A stretch of 29,924 nt of DNA, taken from IMG/VR virus record IMGVR_UViG_2541047891_000002. One strand, 5' to 3'. This DNA is from a virus (taxonomy: Duplodnaviria > Heunggongvirae > Uroviricota > Caudoviricetes). Numbering within the stretch: position 1 is the stretch's first letter; every line of letters begins with the position of its first letter. The position numbers and the translations under genes were made by a program. Positions 6,914 to 12,463 of the stretch are shown here, in pieces. The notes beneath the pieces were generated by a model. The model did no database searches. It was not told the origin of the DNA and saw only the letters and a program-made list of their open reading frames with translations.

Positions 6914-6965
6914 ACGCCCTCAATATTCTGTTGTGACGATAAAACGTTCATTACAGGAGGGCAAC
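6914..6965 (+). promoter_or_regulatory. Candidate middle promoter region (Pm-equivalent, expected to be Mor-dependent)
   Basis: Position only: between the early terminator and the first middle-operon gene; contains TGACGATAAAAC; no element verified. Confidence 0.3.
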
Positions 6966-7526
6966 ATGCCTGAGTTTTCCCCTGCATTCCTTCATTCGCT
7001 GAATTTTGTTATACGGCCTGATGTTGAAGGTGGTTACGTTAATGATCCCACTGACCGTGGCGGCGAAACCAAATACGGCATTTCTGACCGTCGCGACGGC
7101 GTTATTGATGGCAAAACCGATGTTAACGGTGACGGGAAGCCTGATACCCGTATTAAAGATTTAACCCACGAGCAGGCGGCGCAAATCTACTGGCGTGATT
7201 ACTGGCTGGCGGCAAAGTGTAACGAATGGCCTGATGGTGTTTCCTTATTCGTCTTTGATGCTGCCGTTCAGCACGGTGTTAAACGCGCAATTCAAATCCT
7301 CCAGGCGGCAGCAGGTGTTGATGATGATGGCATCGTCGGCAAAAACACCCGCGCAGCCGTTCTGCGTGCCGACACTGACTGGCTGCTGTTGCAGTGTTTC
7401 CTGCGTCGTTCCCGCTATTACGCAGGGATTATCAAATCCAGTGCCTCGCAGGGGAAATATCTGAACGGCTGGTTTAACCGCCTGGATCTGCTCGCCAGCG
7501 TCTGCCGGGAGGTTCTGCATGGGTAA
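6966..7526 (+). CDS. GH108-family muramidase with C-terminal peptidoglycan-binding domain
   Basis: Track ORF 6933-7526; start ATG 6966 with AGGAGG 5 nt upstream; N-terminal EGGYVNDPTDRGGETKYGI motif typical of glycoside hydrolase family 108; C-terminal DGIVGKNTRAAV resembles PG_binding_3. Confidence 0.75.
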   Translation: MPEFSPAFLHSLNFVIRPDVEGGYVNDPTDRGGETKYGISDRRDGVIDGKTDVNGDGKPDTRIKDLTHEQAAQIYWRDYWLAAKCNEWPDGVSLFVFDAAVQHGVKRAIQILQAAAGVDDDGIVGKNTRAAVLRADTDWLLLQCFLRRSRYYAGIIKSSASQGKYLNGWFNRLDLLASVCREVLHG

Positions 7527-8755: not shown

Positions 8756-9184
8756 ATGAACGATTTTAAAAAACGTCTCCCCCGCATCATCAGAACACTT
8801 GCCATCGTGGTACTGGCGGCATGTGGTGGCTGGCAGTTGTCCGGCGATGGTGATTCATCGCTGGTTTCTGTTCAGTACCTTCCATACACAGACCAGCACG
8901 GCGAACTGACAGTTTGCCTTAACCATCACGGTCCTGATATTCAGCAACGCCCTTACAGCTATGGTGAATGCATCATGCTGTTGAAAGCAGATTTGAAGCC
9001 TGTTTATGACACGTTAAATACCCATCTGAACAGGCCACTGACAGAGGAACAAAAAAATGCACTGGCGGTGTTTATGTTCAGCGCCGGTTCTGGTGCTGTG
9101 CCCGCTCCCCGTAATAATCAGCTGCTGAATGATGATGTGTTACCGGTGCCGGGATTAATGCCGGGTATGTCGTCAGGGCTGTAA
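8756..9184 (+). CDS. lys: Lysozyme-fold endolysin homologue with SAR-type N-terminus, possibly degenerate
   Basis: 142 aa; N-terminus MNDFKKRLPRIIRTLAIVVLAACGGWQL (two Lys then a weakly hydrophobic Gly/Ala-rich segment); core YLPYTDQHGELTVCLNHHG aligns to the Y.PY.D.....T.C.GH block of SAR lysozymes; see findings for missing Glu. Confidence 0.7.
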   Translation: MNDFKKRLPRIIRTLAIVVLAACGGWQLSGDGDSSLVSVQYLPYTDQHGELTVCLNHHGPDIQQRPYSYGECIMLLKADLKPVYDTLNTHLNRPLTEEQKNALAVFMFSAGSGAVPAPRNNQLLNDDVLPVPGLMPGMSSGL

Positions 9185-9791: not shown

Positions 9792-10370
9792 ATGATGGAC
9801 AGGAAAACTCGGGGACGGGCTTCAAAAGTGGATTTGCTGCCGGAAAACGTGCGCAAAACACTGCATGAAATGCTGCGTGACAAGGCAATCCCACAGGCCC
9901 GCATTCTGGAAGAAATTAACGCCCTGATTGAAGATGCCGGACTGCCTGATGACATGAAACTCTCCCGTTCCGGCCTGAACCGTTACGCGACAAACGTCGA
10001 ACAGGTAGGCCATAACCTGCGACAGATGCGTGAAATGACGTCAGCACTGACCGCAGAACTTGGCGACAAGCCAATGGGGGAAACCACAAAGCTGATTCTG
10101 GAAATGGCCCGCAGCCAGCTTTTTAAGGCCATGATGCGGCAAATCGAAAACCCGGAATCAGATGTGGATATTGACCTGCTTAAAAACGCCATGCTGGCAG
10201 CACAGCGTCTGGAATCCACGGCAATGTCCAGCCACAAACGCGAGAAAGAAATCCGTCAGGCATTCGCGGAAGAAGCGGCGAACGCTGTCAGTGAAGAACT
10301 GCGCGGGCAGGATGGCATCAGCGAAGAACTGGAGCAGCGTATCCGTGATGTGCTGCTGGGAAAAGCGTAA
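9792..10370 (+). CDS. D: Mu gp27 (D)-like protein, probable small terminase subunit
   Basis: 192 aa immediately upstream of the large-terminase region, in the position of Mu D; GGAGG next to the start. Confidence 0.65.
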   Translation: MMDRKTRGRASKVDLLPENVRKTLHEMLRDKAIPQARILEEINALIEDAGLPDDMKLSRSGLNRYATNVEQVGHNLRQMREMTSALTAELGDKPMGETTKLILEMARSQLFKAMMRQIENPESDVDIDLLKNAMLAAQRLESTAMSSHKREKEIRQAFAEEAANAVSEELRGQDGISEELEQRIRDVLLGKA

Positions 10371-10383
10371 AGGAGAAAATGTA

Positions 10384-10578
10384 ATGGCTGTTGAAACCAA
10401 AGAAAAAACGTCTGCGGAAATTGCCCTGAAACTCAAACCCATCGTCGAAGCGGCGCTGGCTGAGGAGGGCAATATTCATATCGTCACAAAAGCCGAATCA
10501 CTGTATCTGTTAATGCAGATTGTGGTTGGCCCGCGTATCGCGGGCCAGATCATCAGAGAGTCACAAATTAATCAGTAA
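10384..10578 (+). CDS. Hypothetical small protein (65 aa)
   Basis: ATG 10384 preceded by AGGAG (10371-10375) at 8-nt spacing; lies inside track ORF 10162-10578, whose upstream part overlaps the D-like gene. Confidence 0.4.
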   Translation: MAVETKEKTSAEIALKLKPIVEAALAEEGNIHIVTKAESLYLLMQIVVGPRIAGQIIRESQINQ

Positions 10579-10753
10579 TCATTGCCTCCAACAACTGATA
10601 AATATGTTTTAACAACTCCCGTTCTGACTTCACATTTTGATCAGAACCGGCAAGACACGCTGGCTGTTTATTCGTATTCATGCCAGCGATAACAAAGTCA
10701 CTTGCTATTTTTGCAATCTCAATTTTTTGGTCAATGGTCAGCTTTTCTTTCAT
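10568..10753 (-). CDS. Hypothetical small protein (61 aa) on the reverse strand between D and E
   Basis: Reverse-strand ORF with AAGAGG upstream of its ATG and a TATAAAT-like element ~35 nt upstream; AT-rich against GC-rich flanks; 3' end overlaps 10384-10578 by 11 bp. Confidence 0.4.
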   Translation of the reverse strand: MKEKLTIDQKIEIAKIASDFVIAGMNTNKQPACLAGSDQNVKSERELLKHIYQLLEAMITD

Positions 10754-10807
10754 AGCAACCTCTTTTTACTGATTAAAGCCTGAAAATTTATACCGGATTT
10801 TTCACCT

Positions 10808-12463
10808 GTGAGCACCAAAGAAAGCAAACTTAAAGCCCTTCATGCACCCCGCAAAATCGACCTGCGCAAGGAGGCCGAACTGCTTGGCGTGAATATCGTG
10901 ACCGATATCGGGGAAGCGCAGCCCCGCAATGAACCGGTTTTCCTAGGCTATCAGCGCCGCTGGTTTGAGGATGAAAGCCAGATTTGCATTGCTGAAAAAT
11001 CCCGTCGTACCGGTCTGACATGGGCCGAAGCGGGCCGCAATGTCATGACGGCCGCAAAGCCGCGTCGCCGTGGTGGTCGCAACGTCTTTTATGTGGGTTC
11101 CCGTCAGGAAATGGCGCTGGAATACATCGCCGCCTGTGCCCTGTTTGCCCGCGCCTTTAACCAGCTGGCAAAGGCTGACGTCTGGGAGCAGACCTTCTGG
11201 GACAGCGACAAAAAAGAAGAAATCCTCACCTACATGATCCGCTTTCCGAATAGTGGATTTAAGGTGCAGGCGCTTTCAAGCCGCCCGTCTAACCTGCGTG
11301 GTTTACAGGGGGATGTGGTGATTGATGAAGCGGCATTTCATGAAGCCCTGGACGAACTCCTGAAAGCGGCCTTTGCGCTCACCATGTGGGGTGCCCGCGT
11401 GCGGATCATATCGACACATAACGGCGTCGATAACCTGTTTAACCAGTACATTCAGGATGCACGCGAGGGGCGCAAGGATTACAGCGTTCACCGTATCACG
11501 CTGGACGATGCCATCGCTGACGGGCTGTACCGACGTATCTGTTATGTCACGAATCAGCCGTGGTCGCCGGAAGCGGAGAAAGCCTGGCGTGATGGCCTGT
11601 ACCGGAACGCGCCGAACAAAGAGAGCGCCGACGAGGAATACGGCTGTATTCCCAAAAAATCCGGTGGCGCTTACCTGTCCCGTGTCCTGATTGAAGCTGC
11701 CATGACACCCGCGCGGGATATCCCGGTTCTGCGTTTTGAAGCCCCGGACGATTTTGAATCGCTGACACCGCAGATGCGCCACGGTATCGTTCAGGACTGG
11801 TGTGAACAGGAGCTGCTCCCGTTGCTCGATGCGCTGTCGCCGCTCAATAAACACGTACTGGGCGAAGACTTTGCACGCCGTGGCGACCTGACGGTGTTTG
11901 TGCCGCTTGCCATCACTCCAGACTTACGCAAACGCGAATGTTTCCGCGTGGAGCTGCGTAATGTGACCTATGACCAGCAGCGACAAATCCTTTTATTCAT
12001 TCTGTCCCGTTTACCCCGTTTTACCGGCGCTGCATTTGATGCCACCGGTAACGGCGGTTATCTGGCAGAAGCCGCCCGTCTGATTTATGGCCCGGAGATG
12101 ATCGACTGTGTGAATCTGACCGCGTCCTGGTATCAGGAGTGGATGCCAAAACTGAAAGGCGAGTTTGAAGCGCAGAACATCACGATTGCCCGGCACCAGA
12201 CCACACTTGATGACCTGCTCCACATCAAGGTGGACAAAGGTATTCCGCAGATTGATAAGGGGCGCACAAAAGATGAAGGCGGTAAAGGCCGACGACATGG
12301 CGACTTTGCCGTGGCGCTCTGTATGGCTGTCAGGGCGTCTTATATGAATGGTTTTGTTATCGACGAGGACAGCATACAGGCGCTGCCACCACGCCACCGT
12401 GGTGATGATGTTGATAACGATGATTTTGATGATTATCACCAGTTTGAACGAGGGGGCTGGTAA
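10808..12463 (+). CDS. E: Terminase large subunit
   Basis: 551 aa; ATPase-like block GDVVIDEAAFH; followed by portal with TAATG overlap; start taken as GTG 10808 (no clear SD, alternative GTGs at 10889/10898). Confidence 0.85.
   Translation: MSTKESKLKALHAPRKIDLRKEAELLGVNIVTDIGEAQPRNEPVFLGYQRRWFEDESQICIAEKSRRTGLTWAEAGRNVMTAAKPRRRGGRNVFYVGSRQEMALEYIAACALFARAFNQLAKADVWEQTFWDSDKKEEILTYMIRFPNSGFKVQALSSRPSNLRGLQGDVVIDEAAFHEALDELLKAAFALTMWGARVRIISTHNGVDNLFNQYIQDAREGRKDYSVHRITLDDAIADGLYRRICYVTNQPWSPEAEKAWRDGLYRNAPNKESADEEYGCIPKKSGGAYLSRVLIEAAMTPARDIPVLRFEAPDDFESLTPQMRHGIVQDWCEQELLPLLDALSPLNKHVLGEDFARRGDLTVFVPLAITPDLRKRECFRVELRNVTYDQQRQILLFILSRLPRFTGAAFDATGNGGYLAEAARLIYGPEMIDCVNLTASWYQEWMPKLKGEFEAQNITIARHQTTLDDLLHIKVDKGIPQIDKGRTKDEGGKGRRHGDFAVALCMAVRASYMNGFVIDEDSIQALPPRHRGDDVDNDDFDDYHQFERGGW

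What the first reader, a model, noticed from the sequence alone, without database searches (positions are those of the whole stretch)
10384..10807. Small convergent ORF pair, one on the reverse strand, between the D-like and large-terminase genes
In the classical Mu map D and E are adjacent. Here they are 437 bp apart, and the gap holds a 65-aa + strand ORF (10384-10578, good SD) and a 61-aa - strand ORF (10568-10753) whose 3' ends overlap by 11 bp. The - strand ORF is AT-rich, has its own AAGAGG ribosome-binding site and a TATAAAT-like -10 element, and its promoter would fire against the late transcript. Opposite-strand small genes inside a late structural operon are typical of morons or regulatory add-ons.
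Basis: partly seen in the sequence, partly recalled or inferred. Interest (0 to 1): 0.5.

Follow-up and report, generated by a model that had tools for sequence, protein, structure and literature searches.

The report
Tab/anti-Tab-like gene pair in Mu-like prophage
Between the two DNA-packaging genes of this Mu-like prophage sit two real, conserved small genes facing each other, laid out exactly like a recently described phage-defence gene and its self-protection partner in Pseudomonas Mu-like phages, although their sequences are unrelated and their function is untested.

Summary
A + strand ORF (10384-10578, 64 aa, not 65) and a - strand ORF (10568-10753, 61 aa) overlap by 11 bp at their 3' ends, in a 437-bp D-E spacer that is 7 bp in Mu.

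- **Both are genes.** They show purifying selection (dN/dS 0.12-0.5) and belong to function-unknown families phrog_21398 ("P") and phrog_25148 ("M").
- **The pair is conserved.** It recurs as a convergent, 3'-overlapping or abutting pair at the small/large terminase junction of very divergent Mu-like prophages, including ones with a different small terminase (DUF1804).
- **M depends on P.** In those loci M never occurs without P, whereas P occurs without M. Alleles differ in one core that encodes both C-termini.
- **There is a precedent.** This is the architecture of Tab/anti-Tab in Pseudomonas phage JBD26: a prophage-expressed assembly blocker on the minus strand and its late-operon antidote after the small terminase. 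No sequence homology to either protein is detectable.

Best reading (about 0.45): M is a prophage-expressed defence protein and P its late-expressed self-immunity partner. The "moron" idea is partly right. The module looks ancestral and decaying rather than a recent insertion.

The parts
9792..10370 (+). D, the gp27-type small terminase gene (192 aa). Left boundary of the module.
   Evidence: Pfam Phage_Mu_Gp27, E = 4e-53. RefSeq names it a DUF3486 family protein. About 93% identical in DNA to Mu-group phages.
10384..10578 (+). P: a 64-aa late-operon gene immediately after the small terminase. Proposed self-immunity (anti-M) protein.
   Evidence: - AGGAG at 10371-10375, and the start lies 13 nt after the D stop.
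- phrog_21398, E = 1.6e-41.
- dN/dS 0.13-0.53.
- Homologues sit at the same place in Tongde, L019, L021, L028, L030, L031, L034 and L040.
- Conserved C-terminal motif (A/E)xLxLxMQxxxGPxxAxxxI.
- The AF2 model is three helices but low confidence, pLDDT 67.
- No Pfam, NCBIfam, PADLOC or PDB match.
10568..10753 (-). M: a 61-aa opposite-strand gene. Proposed prophage-expressed defence (assembly or packaging blocker) protein.
   Evidence: - AAGAGG 5 nt before the ATG.
- phrog_25148, E = 3e-47.
- dN/dS 0.12-0.53.
- The exhaustive profile search finds 38 representatives, mostly small proteins of 61-90 aa.
- The N-terminal motif L-T-I-D-Q-K-I-x-I-A-x-I-A is conserved at protein level while synonymous sites vary freely.
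- AF2 pLDDT 89.6: helices at 7-25, 31-35 and 44-60.
- Only generic helical-hairpin fold matches.
- GC 0.37.
10568..10578 (.). The 11-bp overlap of the 3' ends of the two convergent genes.
   Evidence: The tail-to-tail overlap is kept (11-32 bp) in most alleles and distant relatives, although the sequence differs. In L031 the two genes abut without overlapping. JBD26 atab/tab overlap by 47 bp.
10489..10702 (.). Variable core that is exchanged between alleles. It encodes the C-terminal part of P (codons 36-64) and of M (codons 18-61).
   Evidence: Window versus L010/L016: the core is 42-52% identical, while the flanks (P codons 1-35, M codons 1-17, spacer, E start) are 88-100% identical.
10754..10807 (-). 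The 54-bp divergent spacer between the M start and the E start. It holds the M RBS (complement of 10759-10764) and a TATAAA(T) -10-like element (complement of 10786-10792). No -35 is recognisable.
   Evidence: - Sequence.
- The consensus scan did not call this promoter.
- At the equivalent distance, 8 of 12 other lineages carry an extended -10-like TGnTAAnGT and two carry CATAAT.
10808..12463 (+). E, the large terminase gene (551 aa). Right boundary of the module. It starts with GTG and has no Shine-Dalgarno sequence.
   Evidence: Terminase_6N. Mu E has an ATG preceded by GAGGG.
10527..10547 (.). Perfect 9-bp GC-rich hairpin (TGGCCCGCG-TAT-CGCGGGCCA) inside P, at codons V-G-P-R-I-A-G-Q. Role unknown.
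   Evidence: A 7-bp version is present in L019 and L021, and it is absent in L010.

Best explanation
The D-E spacer holds a two-gene prophage defence / self-immunity module that works like Tab/anti-Tab of Pseudomonas Mu-like phage JBD26, but is built from unrelated protein families.

**M (61 aa, - strand).**
- It is transcribed from its own promoter, independently of the rightward phage operons, and so is made in the lysogen (inferred).
- It is a small, soluble, mildly acidic helical protein.
- Its invariant N-terminal helix is proposed to bind a conserved late protein of incoming related Mu-like phages, either a virion-assembly or a packaging component.
- That binding would block production of infectious particles (inferred by analogy).

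**P (64 aa, + strand).**
- It is the gene immediately after the small terminase in the late lys-D-E transcript.
- It is therefore made only when the prophage itself goes lytic.
- It is proposed to bind and neutralise M, so that the resident phage is not self-inhibited (inferred).

**Secondary effects (inferred).** Late transcription running through the convergent, 3'-overlapping M gene would also damp M expression at that time.

**What is shown here.**
- Both are real, selected genes.
- They form a conserved convergent pair at the small/large terminase junction.
- M is never found without P in the loci examined with intact flanks.
- Alleles differ in one core that encodes both C-termini.

**What is not shown.** Expression timing, a P-M interaction, anti-phage activity and the target.
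For: **1. [quoted passage not shown] - JBD26: gp29 is a DUF1804 small terminase, gp30 is + strand, gp31 is - strand, the 3' overlap is 47 bp, and the large terminase starts 30 bp beyond tab.
- Window: D, then P (+), then M (-), with an 11-bp overlap, and E starts 54 bp beyond M.

**2. Both genes are under purifying selection**.

**3. The pair sits in the same slot in distant Mu-like phages,** with either a gp27-type or a DUF1804-type small terminase.

**4. The presence/absence pattern is the one an addiction-like defence/antidote pair predicts.**
- In 80 DUF1804-type loci, M is in 5 and P in 9, and every M has P (Fisher p = 5e-6, not corrected for phylogeny).
- P occurs alone in Tongde, L041/L042, L078 and L114.
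- In JBD26, atab could not be deleted alone, whereas the double deletion is viable.

**5. Alleles swap a single core encoding both C-termini.** The core is 42-52% identical against 88-100% for the flanks, as expected for a matched interaction surface.

**6. Signs of autonomous expression of M.** It has its own strong RBS, low GC (0.37), and a conserved extended -10-like motif 36-45 nt upstream of the ATG in 8 of 12 lineages.

**7. The module is dispensable for lytic growth.** It is absent from Mu, D108 and SfMu.

**8. A second independent precedent has the same logic.** In Listeria TERi, the 65-aa TerI is on the minus strand of a lytic module and the self-immunity genes are on the lytic strand (bioRxiv 10.1101/2025.02.27.640495).
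Against: - **No sequence homology.** Neither M versus Tab nor P versus anti-Tab is detectable: hhalign probability is below 1% and hmmsearch E is above 0.2. The parallel is positional only.
- **No structural or family link.** There is no fold or family link to any defence protein.
- **Weak promoter in this window.** The element is TATAAA without a -35, and the scan did not call it.
- **No functional data.** There are no expression, interaction or phenotype data.
- **Linkage could explain the joint patterns.** The M-within-P nesting and the shared variable core could both follow from tight physical linkage of two adjacent small genes rather than from function. The Fisher test ignores relatedness of the loci.
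- **P is not tied to M alone.** In one locus (L078) P is convergent with a different 171-aa minus-strand gene.
- **M without P in two fragments.** Two short, apparently degraded contigs carry M next to a truncated DUF1804 gene without P (L032/L033).
- **Where the conservation lies.** The most conserved part of M is the N-terminal helix, while the alleles differ in the C-terminus. Which part would bind the target and which would bind P is a guess.
Confidence: 0.45

Rival explanations
1. There are two functionally independent genes. M is an ordinary moron: a prophage-expressed accessory gene acting on the host or on unrelated phages (lysogenic conversion, exclusion or other). It is parked in a permissive slot before the large terminase gene. 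P is an unrelated small late protein that assists the small terminase or packaging.
For: - The small/large terminase junction is a variable hotspot. The gap runs from -8 to 1739 bp in 71 DUF1804-type loci and holds several unrelated minus-strand ORFs.
- P occurs without M, and once next to a different minus-strand gene.
- In L034, P is fused to another small late ORF.
- M is AT-rich.
Against: - M was never found without P in loci with intact flanks, although most loci lack P.
- The allelic core spans both genes.
- The tail-to-tail arrangement, overlapping in all but one locus (L031, abutting), is kept over deep divergence.
- P is dispensable in Mu, so it has no core packaging role.
Confidence: 0.25
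2. The module is a cis/antisense regulatory device. Convergent transcription from the M promoter, and the 3'-overlapping RNAs, tune read-through of the late transcript into the large terminase gene. In this window that gene has a GTG start, no Shine-Dalgarno sequence and a 229-nt untranslated, C>G leader. The encoded peptides would be secondary.
For: - The convergent 3' overlap is conserved in most loci.
- No terminator separates the genes.
- E lacks a Shine-Dalgarno sequence and starts with GTG here.
- GC skew on the + strand is negative over 10500-10850.
Against: - Both ORFs are under clear protein-level purifying selection.
- The M N-terminal motif is conserved with freely varying synonymous sites.
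- Mu manages D/E expression without the module.
- The poor translation start of E is not general. L021 and L028 have Shine-Dalgarno-like sequences.
Confidence: 0.1
3. M is an anti-defence protein, like an anti-CRISPR or anti-restriction protein. It would be expressed from its own promoter immediately after DNA entry, as with the acr loci embedded in the head-gene region of Pseudomonas Mu-like phages.
For: - M is a small, mostly acidic, fast-evolving protein with its own promoter-like element in the late region.
- Anti-CRISPR genes of Mu-like Pseudomonas phages lie in an accessory, low-GC region of plasticity of the genome (PMC4378225).
Against: - M is lost in the only isolated lytic-propagated phage that keeps the site (Tongde).
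- No isolated phage in the phage collection carries M.
- There is no Aca-like HTH partner.
- The opposite-strand placement with a late-operon partner fits defence plus self-immunity better.
Confidence: 0.1
4. One or both ORFs are chance open frames and are not translated.
For: Both are short. No Pfam or NCBIfam family matches. One distant P homologue was missed by a gene caller (L028).
Against: - dN/dS is 0.12-0.5 in every informative pair.
- Both match PHROG families.
- 38 representatives match the M profile at E below 1e-3, mostly small proteins sharing the N-terminal motif.
- Both have good RBSs.
- The AF2 model of M is confident.
Confidence: 0.02

Closest known systems
Tab / anti-Tab (gp31 / gp30) of Pseudomonas phage JBD26, Casadabanvirus (Patel et al. 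2024, PMC10884400)
   Same: - The host element is a Mu-like transposable prophage.
[quoted passage not shown] - The partner is small, on the plus strand, immediately after the small terminase in the late operon.
- The genes converge with overlapping 3' ends.
- The module is dispensable for lytic growth.
- The defence gene is not kept without its partner.
- M-family genes also occur next to the same small-terminase family as JBD26 gp29 (DUF1804).
   Different: - No detectable sequence similarity of M to Tab or of P to anti-Tab.
- The proteins are shorter (61 and 64 aa against 83 and 83 aa).
- The overlap is 11 bp against 47 bp.
- In this window the small terminase is gp27/DUF3486-type.
- Function, target (the tape measure protein for Tab) and P-M binding are untested here.
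- The paper reports Tab homologues only in close relatives of JBD26.
TERi system (TerI, anti-TerI1, anti-TerI2) of Listeria prophage phi10403S (bioRxiv 10.1101/2025.02.27.640495)
   Same: A small (65-aa) defence protein is constitutively transcribed from the strand opposite to a lytic operon. Self-immunity genes sit on the lytic strand next to it or overlapping it. The defence blocks virion production without stopping lysis.
   Different: It lies in the early lytic module of a Gram-positive siphovirus, not at the terminase junction. It has two immunity proteins.
Morons of lambdoid phages (as described in PMC4378225)
   Same: Extra DNA between two genes that are adjacent in a close relative. 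Deviant base composition. Presumed own promoter and expression from the repressed prophage.
   Different: The classical moron is a single gene flanked by a promoter and a terminator, in the same orientation as its neighbours. Here there are two genes, one inside the late operon and one antisense, with no terminator. The same two families are conserved at the site over deep divergence.
Convergent, 3'-overlapping type I toxin-antitoxin loci of prophages (for example txpA/RatA and bsrG/SR4 of B. subtilis; from my own knowledge)
   Same: Convergent transcription units with overlapping 3' ends, carried on prophages.
   Different: In those loci one partner is a non-coding RNA and the toxin is a hydrophobic membrane peptide. 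Here both partners are selected, soluble-looking proteins and neither has a toxin-antitoxin family hit.

Membership tests
Tab/anti-Tab defence system (JBD26) | [quoted passage not shown] | tested here: met
   D at 9792-10370, P, M, then E at 10808-12463. JBD26 layout.
Tab/anti-Tab defence system (JBD26) | The defence gene is on the minus strand with its own promoter and is expressed from the prophage. | tested here: inconclusive
   Strand and RBS are met. In this window only a TATAAA element is present, with no -35, and the scan did not call it. An extended -10-like TGnTAAnGT is conserved upstream of M in 8 of 12 other lineages. No expression data.
Tab/anti-Tab defence system (JBD26) | The partner gene is on the plus strand directly after the small terminase, in the late operon. 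| tested here: met
   P starts 13 nt after the D stop and has an AGGAG. In distant loci it abuts or overlaps the small terminase stop.
Tab/anti-Tab defence system (JBD26) | Sequence homology to Tab (gp31) and anti-Tab (gp30). | tested here: not met
   hhalign probability is 0.45% (M profile versus Tab) and 0.2% (P profile versus anti-Tab). hmmsearch E is above 0.2. jackhmmer with Tab or anti-Tab finds nothing in any fetched locus.
Tab/anti-Tab defence system (JBD26) | The defence gene is not maintained without the counter-defence gene. | tested here: met
   M occurs in 5 of 9 P-positive loci and 0 of 71 P-negative loci. All enterobacterial M loci have P. Exception: two short degraded contigs, L032/L033.
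Tab/anti-Tab defence system (JBD26) | The defence protein blocks virion assembly of related phages, and the partner binds and neutralises it. | not testable with these tools
   This needs plating assays, electron microscopy, and two-hybrid or pull-down assays.
Moron (lambdoid sense) | Present between two genes that are adjacent in a close relative. | tested here: met
   The Mu D-E gap is 7 bp, against 437 bp here.
Moron (lambdoid sense) | A single gene flanked by its own promoter and terminator. | tested here: not met
   There are two genes. No terminator follows M, and the count of terminator-like sites is at the level of shuffled sequence.
Moron (lambdoid sense) | Base composition deviates from the neighbours. 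| tested here: met
   GC is 0.37 for M and 0.33 for the spacer, against 0.53 for D and 0.55 for E. P is intermediate at 0.47.
PHROG families phrog_21398 (P) and phrog_25148 (M) | Full-length profile match. | tested here: met
   E = 1.6e-41 over 1-64 of 64, and E = 3.2e-47 over 1-61 of 61. Both families are annotated 'unknown function'.
Known toxin-antitoxin or defence protein families (Pfam, NCBIfam, PADLOC) | A significant profile match of either protein. | tested here: not met
   No hit passes its cut-off. The best are DUF6565 at E = 0.035 and Cas2_II at E = 0.04, which are noise.
TERi (Listeria TerI / anti-TerI) | Sequence homology to TerI or to the anti-TerI proteins. | not tested
Only the organisation was compared, from the paper.

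The most novel reading that the evidence does not exclude
[quoted passage not shown] P/M would be the first enterobacterial example.
- It would be a new pair of protein families, with allelic specificity cores.
- It would protect E. coli lysogens by aborting particle production of superinfecting Mu-type phages, including classical Mu, D108 and SfMu, which lack the antidote.
- Other convergent pairs seen at the same slot would be further, still undescribed systems of this kind. One example is a 91-aa + ORF with a 63-aa zinc-ribbon - ORF in L043, L049 and L054.
Probability: 0.35. Interest if true: 0.75.

Novelty: new variant of a known kind. Interest (0 to 1): 0.6.

Why it matters
Tab/anti-Tab (2024) and TERi (2025) introduced prophage defences that block virion assembly or packaging and carry a linked self-immunity gene. 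The Tab authors found homologues only in close relatives of one Pseudomonas phage.

If P/M works the same way, three things follow.
- **The strategy is shared and has arisen more than once.** The same genomic slot would be used across Mu-like phages of many Proteobacteria by unrelated protein families.
- **It becomes easy to test.** E. coli with phage Mu is the best genetic system available, and Mu naturally lacks the module.
- **It offers an annotation rule.** A small minus-strand gene convergent with a small gene after the small terminase could flag such systems among 'hypothetical' prophage genes.

If it does not work this way, the module is still a conserved, fast-evolving, uncharacterised pair of phage genes.

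Tried and rejected
- **Homology searches for both proteins.** Pfam, NCBIfam, PADLOC, and PDB by sequence profile gave nothing significant.
- **The P model.** Its confidence is too low (pLDDT 67) to search with.
- **P as a relocated Mu gp24 (also 64 aa).** No similarity.
- **M and P as paralogues.** hhalign probability 0.1%.
- **M or P homologous to Tab or anti-Tab.** Rejected.
- **M in isolated phages.** tblastn of three M-family members against the phage collection found none. Only P occurs, in Yersinia phage Tongde.
- **A C/Mor-type late promoter upstream of M.** I compared it by eye with the window's lys, I and P upstream regions. I saw no shared motif and did not pursue it.
- **Alternative minus-strand cargo at the hotspot.** No significant Pfam or PADLOC hits.
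- **The genome-contig scan.** The first alignment was too diverse. The second scan returned one locus, because confirmation uses the first sequence only.
- **Type I or type II toxin-antitoxin reading.** Rejected. M would be expressed in the lysogen while P is not, so M cannot be a host toxin that needs P. P has no membrane segment.

Full report
**1. The observation**

The window carries a Mu-like prophage late region. D (gp27-type small terminase, Pfam Phage_Mu_Gp27) ends at 10370. E (large terminase) starts at 10808.

Two ORFs lie in the 437-bp gap.
- A + ORF runs 10384-10578.
- A - ORF runs 10568-10753 and is 61 aa.
- Their 3' ends overlap by 11 bp.
- Both have good ribosome-binding sites: AGGAG 8 nt before the + ATG, and AAGAGG 5 nt before the - ATG.

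GC falls from 0.53-0.55 in D and E to 0.47 in the + ORF, 0.37 in the - ORF and 0.33 in the spacer.

In Mu the D stop and the E start are 7 bp apart. Mu, D108, SfMu and several Yersinia Mu-like phages align across the junction with about 430 bp missing. The nearest complete genome for the spacer is E. coli SE11, at 99.8% identity. RefSeq annotates both ORFs there as hypothetical proteins.

It has no -35, and the consensus scan did not call it.

**2. Both ORFs are genes**

I call the + ORF P and the - ORF M.
- P matches phrog_21398 and M matches phrog_25148, both over their full length and both of unknown function.
- Related alleles were recovered from E. coli assemblies and IMG/VR contigs.
- Nei-Gojobori estimates give dN/dS of 0.12-0.53 for every informative pair in both genes. 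For M, window versus L004 has 12 synonymous and 8 non-synonymous differences. L019 versus L021 has pS 0.89 and pN 0.22.
- An exhaustive profile search over 1.84 billion representatives finds 38 proteins related to M. Most are 61-90 aa; a few long multi-stretch matches are probably spurious.
- The N-terminal motif of M, L-T-I-D-Q-K-I-x-I-A-x-I-A, is invariant or nearly so, while its synonymous sites vary freely. The constraint is therefore on the protein and not on the DNA.
- AlphaFold2 models M confidently (pLDDT 89.6) as a helical hairpin with a short middle helix. P is predicted as three helices at low confidence.

**3. The pair is a conserved module, not two stray ORFs**

In enterobacterial Mu-like prophages there are at least four allelic types.
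- Window/L004: M is 61 aa.
- L010/L016: M is 71 aa.
- L019 and E. coli RM8082: M is 64 aa, and a third + ORF, X, lies between D and P.
- L021 and L027: M is 65 aa.

Distant M relatives (25-44% identity) lie at the same place in Mu-like phages whose small terminase belongs to a different family, DUF1804. The order there is small terminase, P homologue, convergent M, then (once, a methyltransferase and) the large terminase and Portal_Mu.

The tail-to-tail overlap is kept at 11-32 bp in most loci, although the sequence is not. In L031 the two genes abut without overlapping.

I scanned 80 DUF1804-type IMG/VR loci with local HMMs. M was in 5 and P in 9, and every M had P beside it. Fisher's exact test gives p = 5e-6, without correction for phylogeny.

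P occurs without M in Yersinia phage Tongde, L041/L042, L078 and L114. In L078, P is convergent with a different minus-strand gene.

The only M copies without P are two short, apparently degraded contigs.

**4. Allelic structure**

Between the window and the L010/L016 allele, these parts are 88-100% identical: the D end, P codons 1-35, M codons 1-17, the spacer and the E start. A single core made of P codons 36-64 and M codons 18-61 is only 42-52% identical. The exchanged unit therefore encodes the C-terminal parts of both proteins together.

**5. Ancestral and decaying, not newly inserted**

- Tongde keeps X and P but has lost M. Its P stop is followed directly by the same ACCGGATTTTTCACC that precedes E in the window.
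- Of 5,426 complete E. coli genomes, 44 carry a Mu-like D. Only 3 have the window-type module and 1 has the three-gene type.
- Together with the presence of P/M in distant Mu-like phages, this suggests that Mu's tight D-E junction is the derived, fully deleted state.

**6. The site is a hotspot**

In 71 DUF1804-type loci the small/large terminase gap ranges from -8 to 1739 bp, with a median of 223 bp. It holds several unrelated minus-strand ORFs:
- a 63-69-aa zinc-ribbon protein convergent with a 91-aa + ORF;
- families of 162-179 aa, 163-189 aa and 164-171 aa;
- a 246-aa membrane protein.

None has a significant Pfam or PADLOC match.

**7. Expression signals**

Upstream of M, 8 of 12 distinct lineages carry an extended -10-like TGnTAAnGT 36-45 nt before the ATG, and two carry CATAAT. 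The window group has GGTATAAAT at the equivalent distance.

No terminator follows M. P is placed so that it is read from the late lys-D transcript.

**8. What it most likely is**

A literature search turned up an exact architectural precedent. In Pseudomonas Mu-like phage JBD26:
- tab (gp31) lies on the minus strand with its own promoter, and atab (gp30) lies on the plus strand directly after the small terminase;
- Tab is made by the prophage and blocks tail assembly of related invaders, and anti-Tab is made from the late operon and binds Tab;
- atab cannot be deleted alone, whereas the double deletion is viable.

The JBD26 locus has a DUF1804 small terminase, 83-aa gp30 and gp31 overlapping by 47 bp, and the large terminase 30 bp further on.

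The Listeria TERi system follows the same logic, with a 65-aa minus-strand TerI.

P/M reproduces every architectural and population-genetic feature I could test:
- the slot and the strands;
- P placed after the small terminase;
- convergence at the 3' ends, with overlap in nearly every locus;
- dispensability;
- the defence gene never kept without its partner;
- M lost before P.

The sequences are unrelated, however. hhalign probabilities are below 1%, and HMM and jackhmmer searches find nothing. I therefore read P/M as working like Tab/anti-Tab (confidence about 0.45) and not as a member of that family.

**9. Rivals**

- Two independent genes that are merely linked, a moron plus a small late accessory protein: about 0.25.
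- An antisense or cis-regulatory device for large terminase expression: about 0.1. Protein-level selection weakens this reading.
- An anti-defence protein: about 0.1. M's absence from isolated phages and its loss in Tongde weaken this reading.
- Chance ORFs: at most 0.02, effectively excluded.

**10. Limits**

I have no expression, interaction or phenotype data, and the target is unknown. The co-occurrence and shared-core arguments cannot be separated from physical linkage with the present sample. The promoter in this particular window is weak by consensus. The decisive experiments are simple in E. coli with phage Mu, which lacks the module.

Noticed in passing
window 10790-10812: The large terminase gene E starts with GTG and has no Shine-Dalgarno sequence (ccggatttttcacctGTG). 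Mu E has an ATG preceded by GAGGG. Tongde shares the same SD-less leader, with an ATG. The late mRNA would carry a 229-nt untranslated, AT-rich, C>G stretch (the antisense of M) before E. How E is translated, and whether Rho polarity acts here, is open.
   Followed up: partly
window 10527-10547: A perfect 9-bp GC-rich hairpin, TGGCCCGCG-TAT-CGCGGGCCA, lies inside P at the conserved G-P-x-x-A-G codons. A 7-bp version is present in L019 and L021, and it is absent in L010. It lies 21-41 nt beyond the M stop codon on the - strand, without a U-tract.
   Followed up: partly
L019 2809-2978; L002 (Tongde) 2177-2352; L117 1789-1959; L116 994-1185: A third small + ORF, X (about 56 aa, MKNNYKAQLISAHKKAF...), lies between D and P in some alleles. 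It is unannotated in Tongde. It has weak similarity to the N-terminus of the MuF domain (Pfam E = 0.15; phrog_220 E = 0.001). Similar ORFs follow DUF1804 small terminases (L043, L044). Function unknown.
   Followed up: partly
L043 3970-4426 (also L049, L054, L109): Another convergent small-gene pair occupies the same small/large terminase slot. A 91-aa + ORF overlaps by 11 bp a 63-69-aa minus-strand zinc-ribbon protein (MALSRCPKCESTRF...). The spacer to the large terminase is again 54 bp. This could be a further defence/antidote-type module.
   Followed up: no
L044, L087, L089 (162-179 aa); L104, L113 (163-189 aa); L078, L091 (164-171 aa); L103 (246 aa membrane protein): [quoted passage not shown] None has a significant Pfam or PADLOC hit. 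They were not validated as genes.
   Followed up: partly
upstream of M in L021, L027, L028, L030, L031, L040, L090, L097: A motif CTCTGATAAnGTT (an extended -10-like TGnTAAnGT) is conserved 36-45 nt upstream of the M start codon across otherwise diverged spacers. It lies between M and the large terminase start, so a role on the large terminase strand cannot be excluded.
   Followed up: partly
window 6933-7526 and 8756-9184 (annotation from L001): Relative to Mu, this prophage type carries a glycoside hydrolase family 108 gene between the two Mor-family activator genes. Its lysis region has a 142-aa lysozyme-family gene followed directly by the DUF2730 gene, with no spanin or gp24 genes annotated. 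Related prophages (L004-L009) have the Mu-type lysis cassette instead.
   Followed up: no
window 9792-10370 versus NC_011415.1: The spacer is 99.8% identical to E. coli SE11, but the adjacent D gene is only 96.5% identical. The window is therefore a mosaic relative of the SE11 prophage and not that prophage itself.
   Followed up: no
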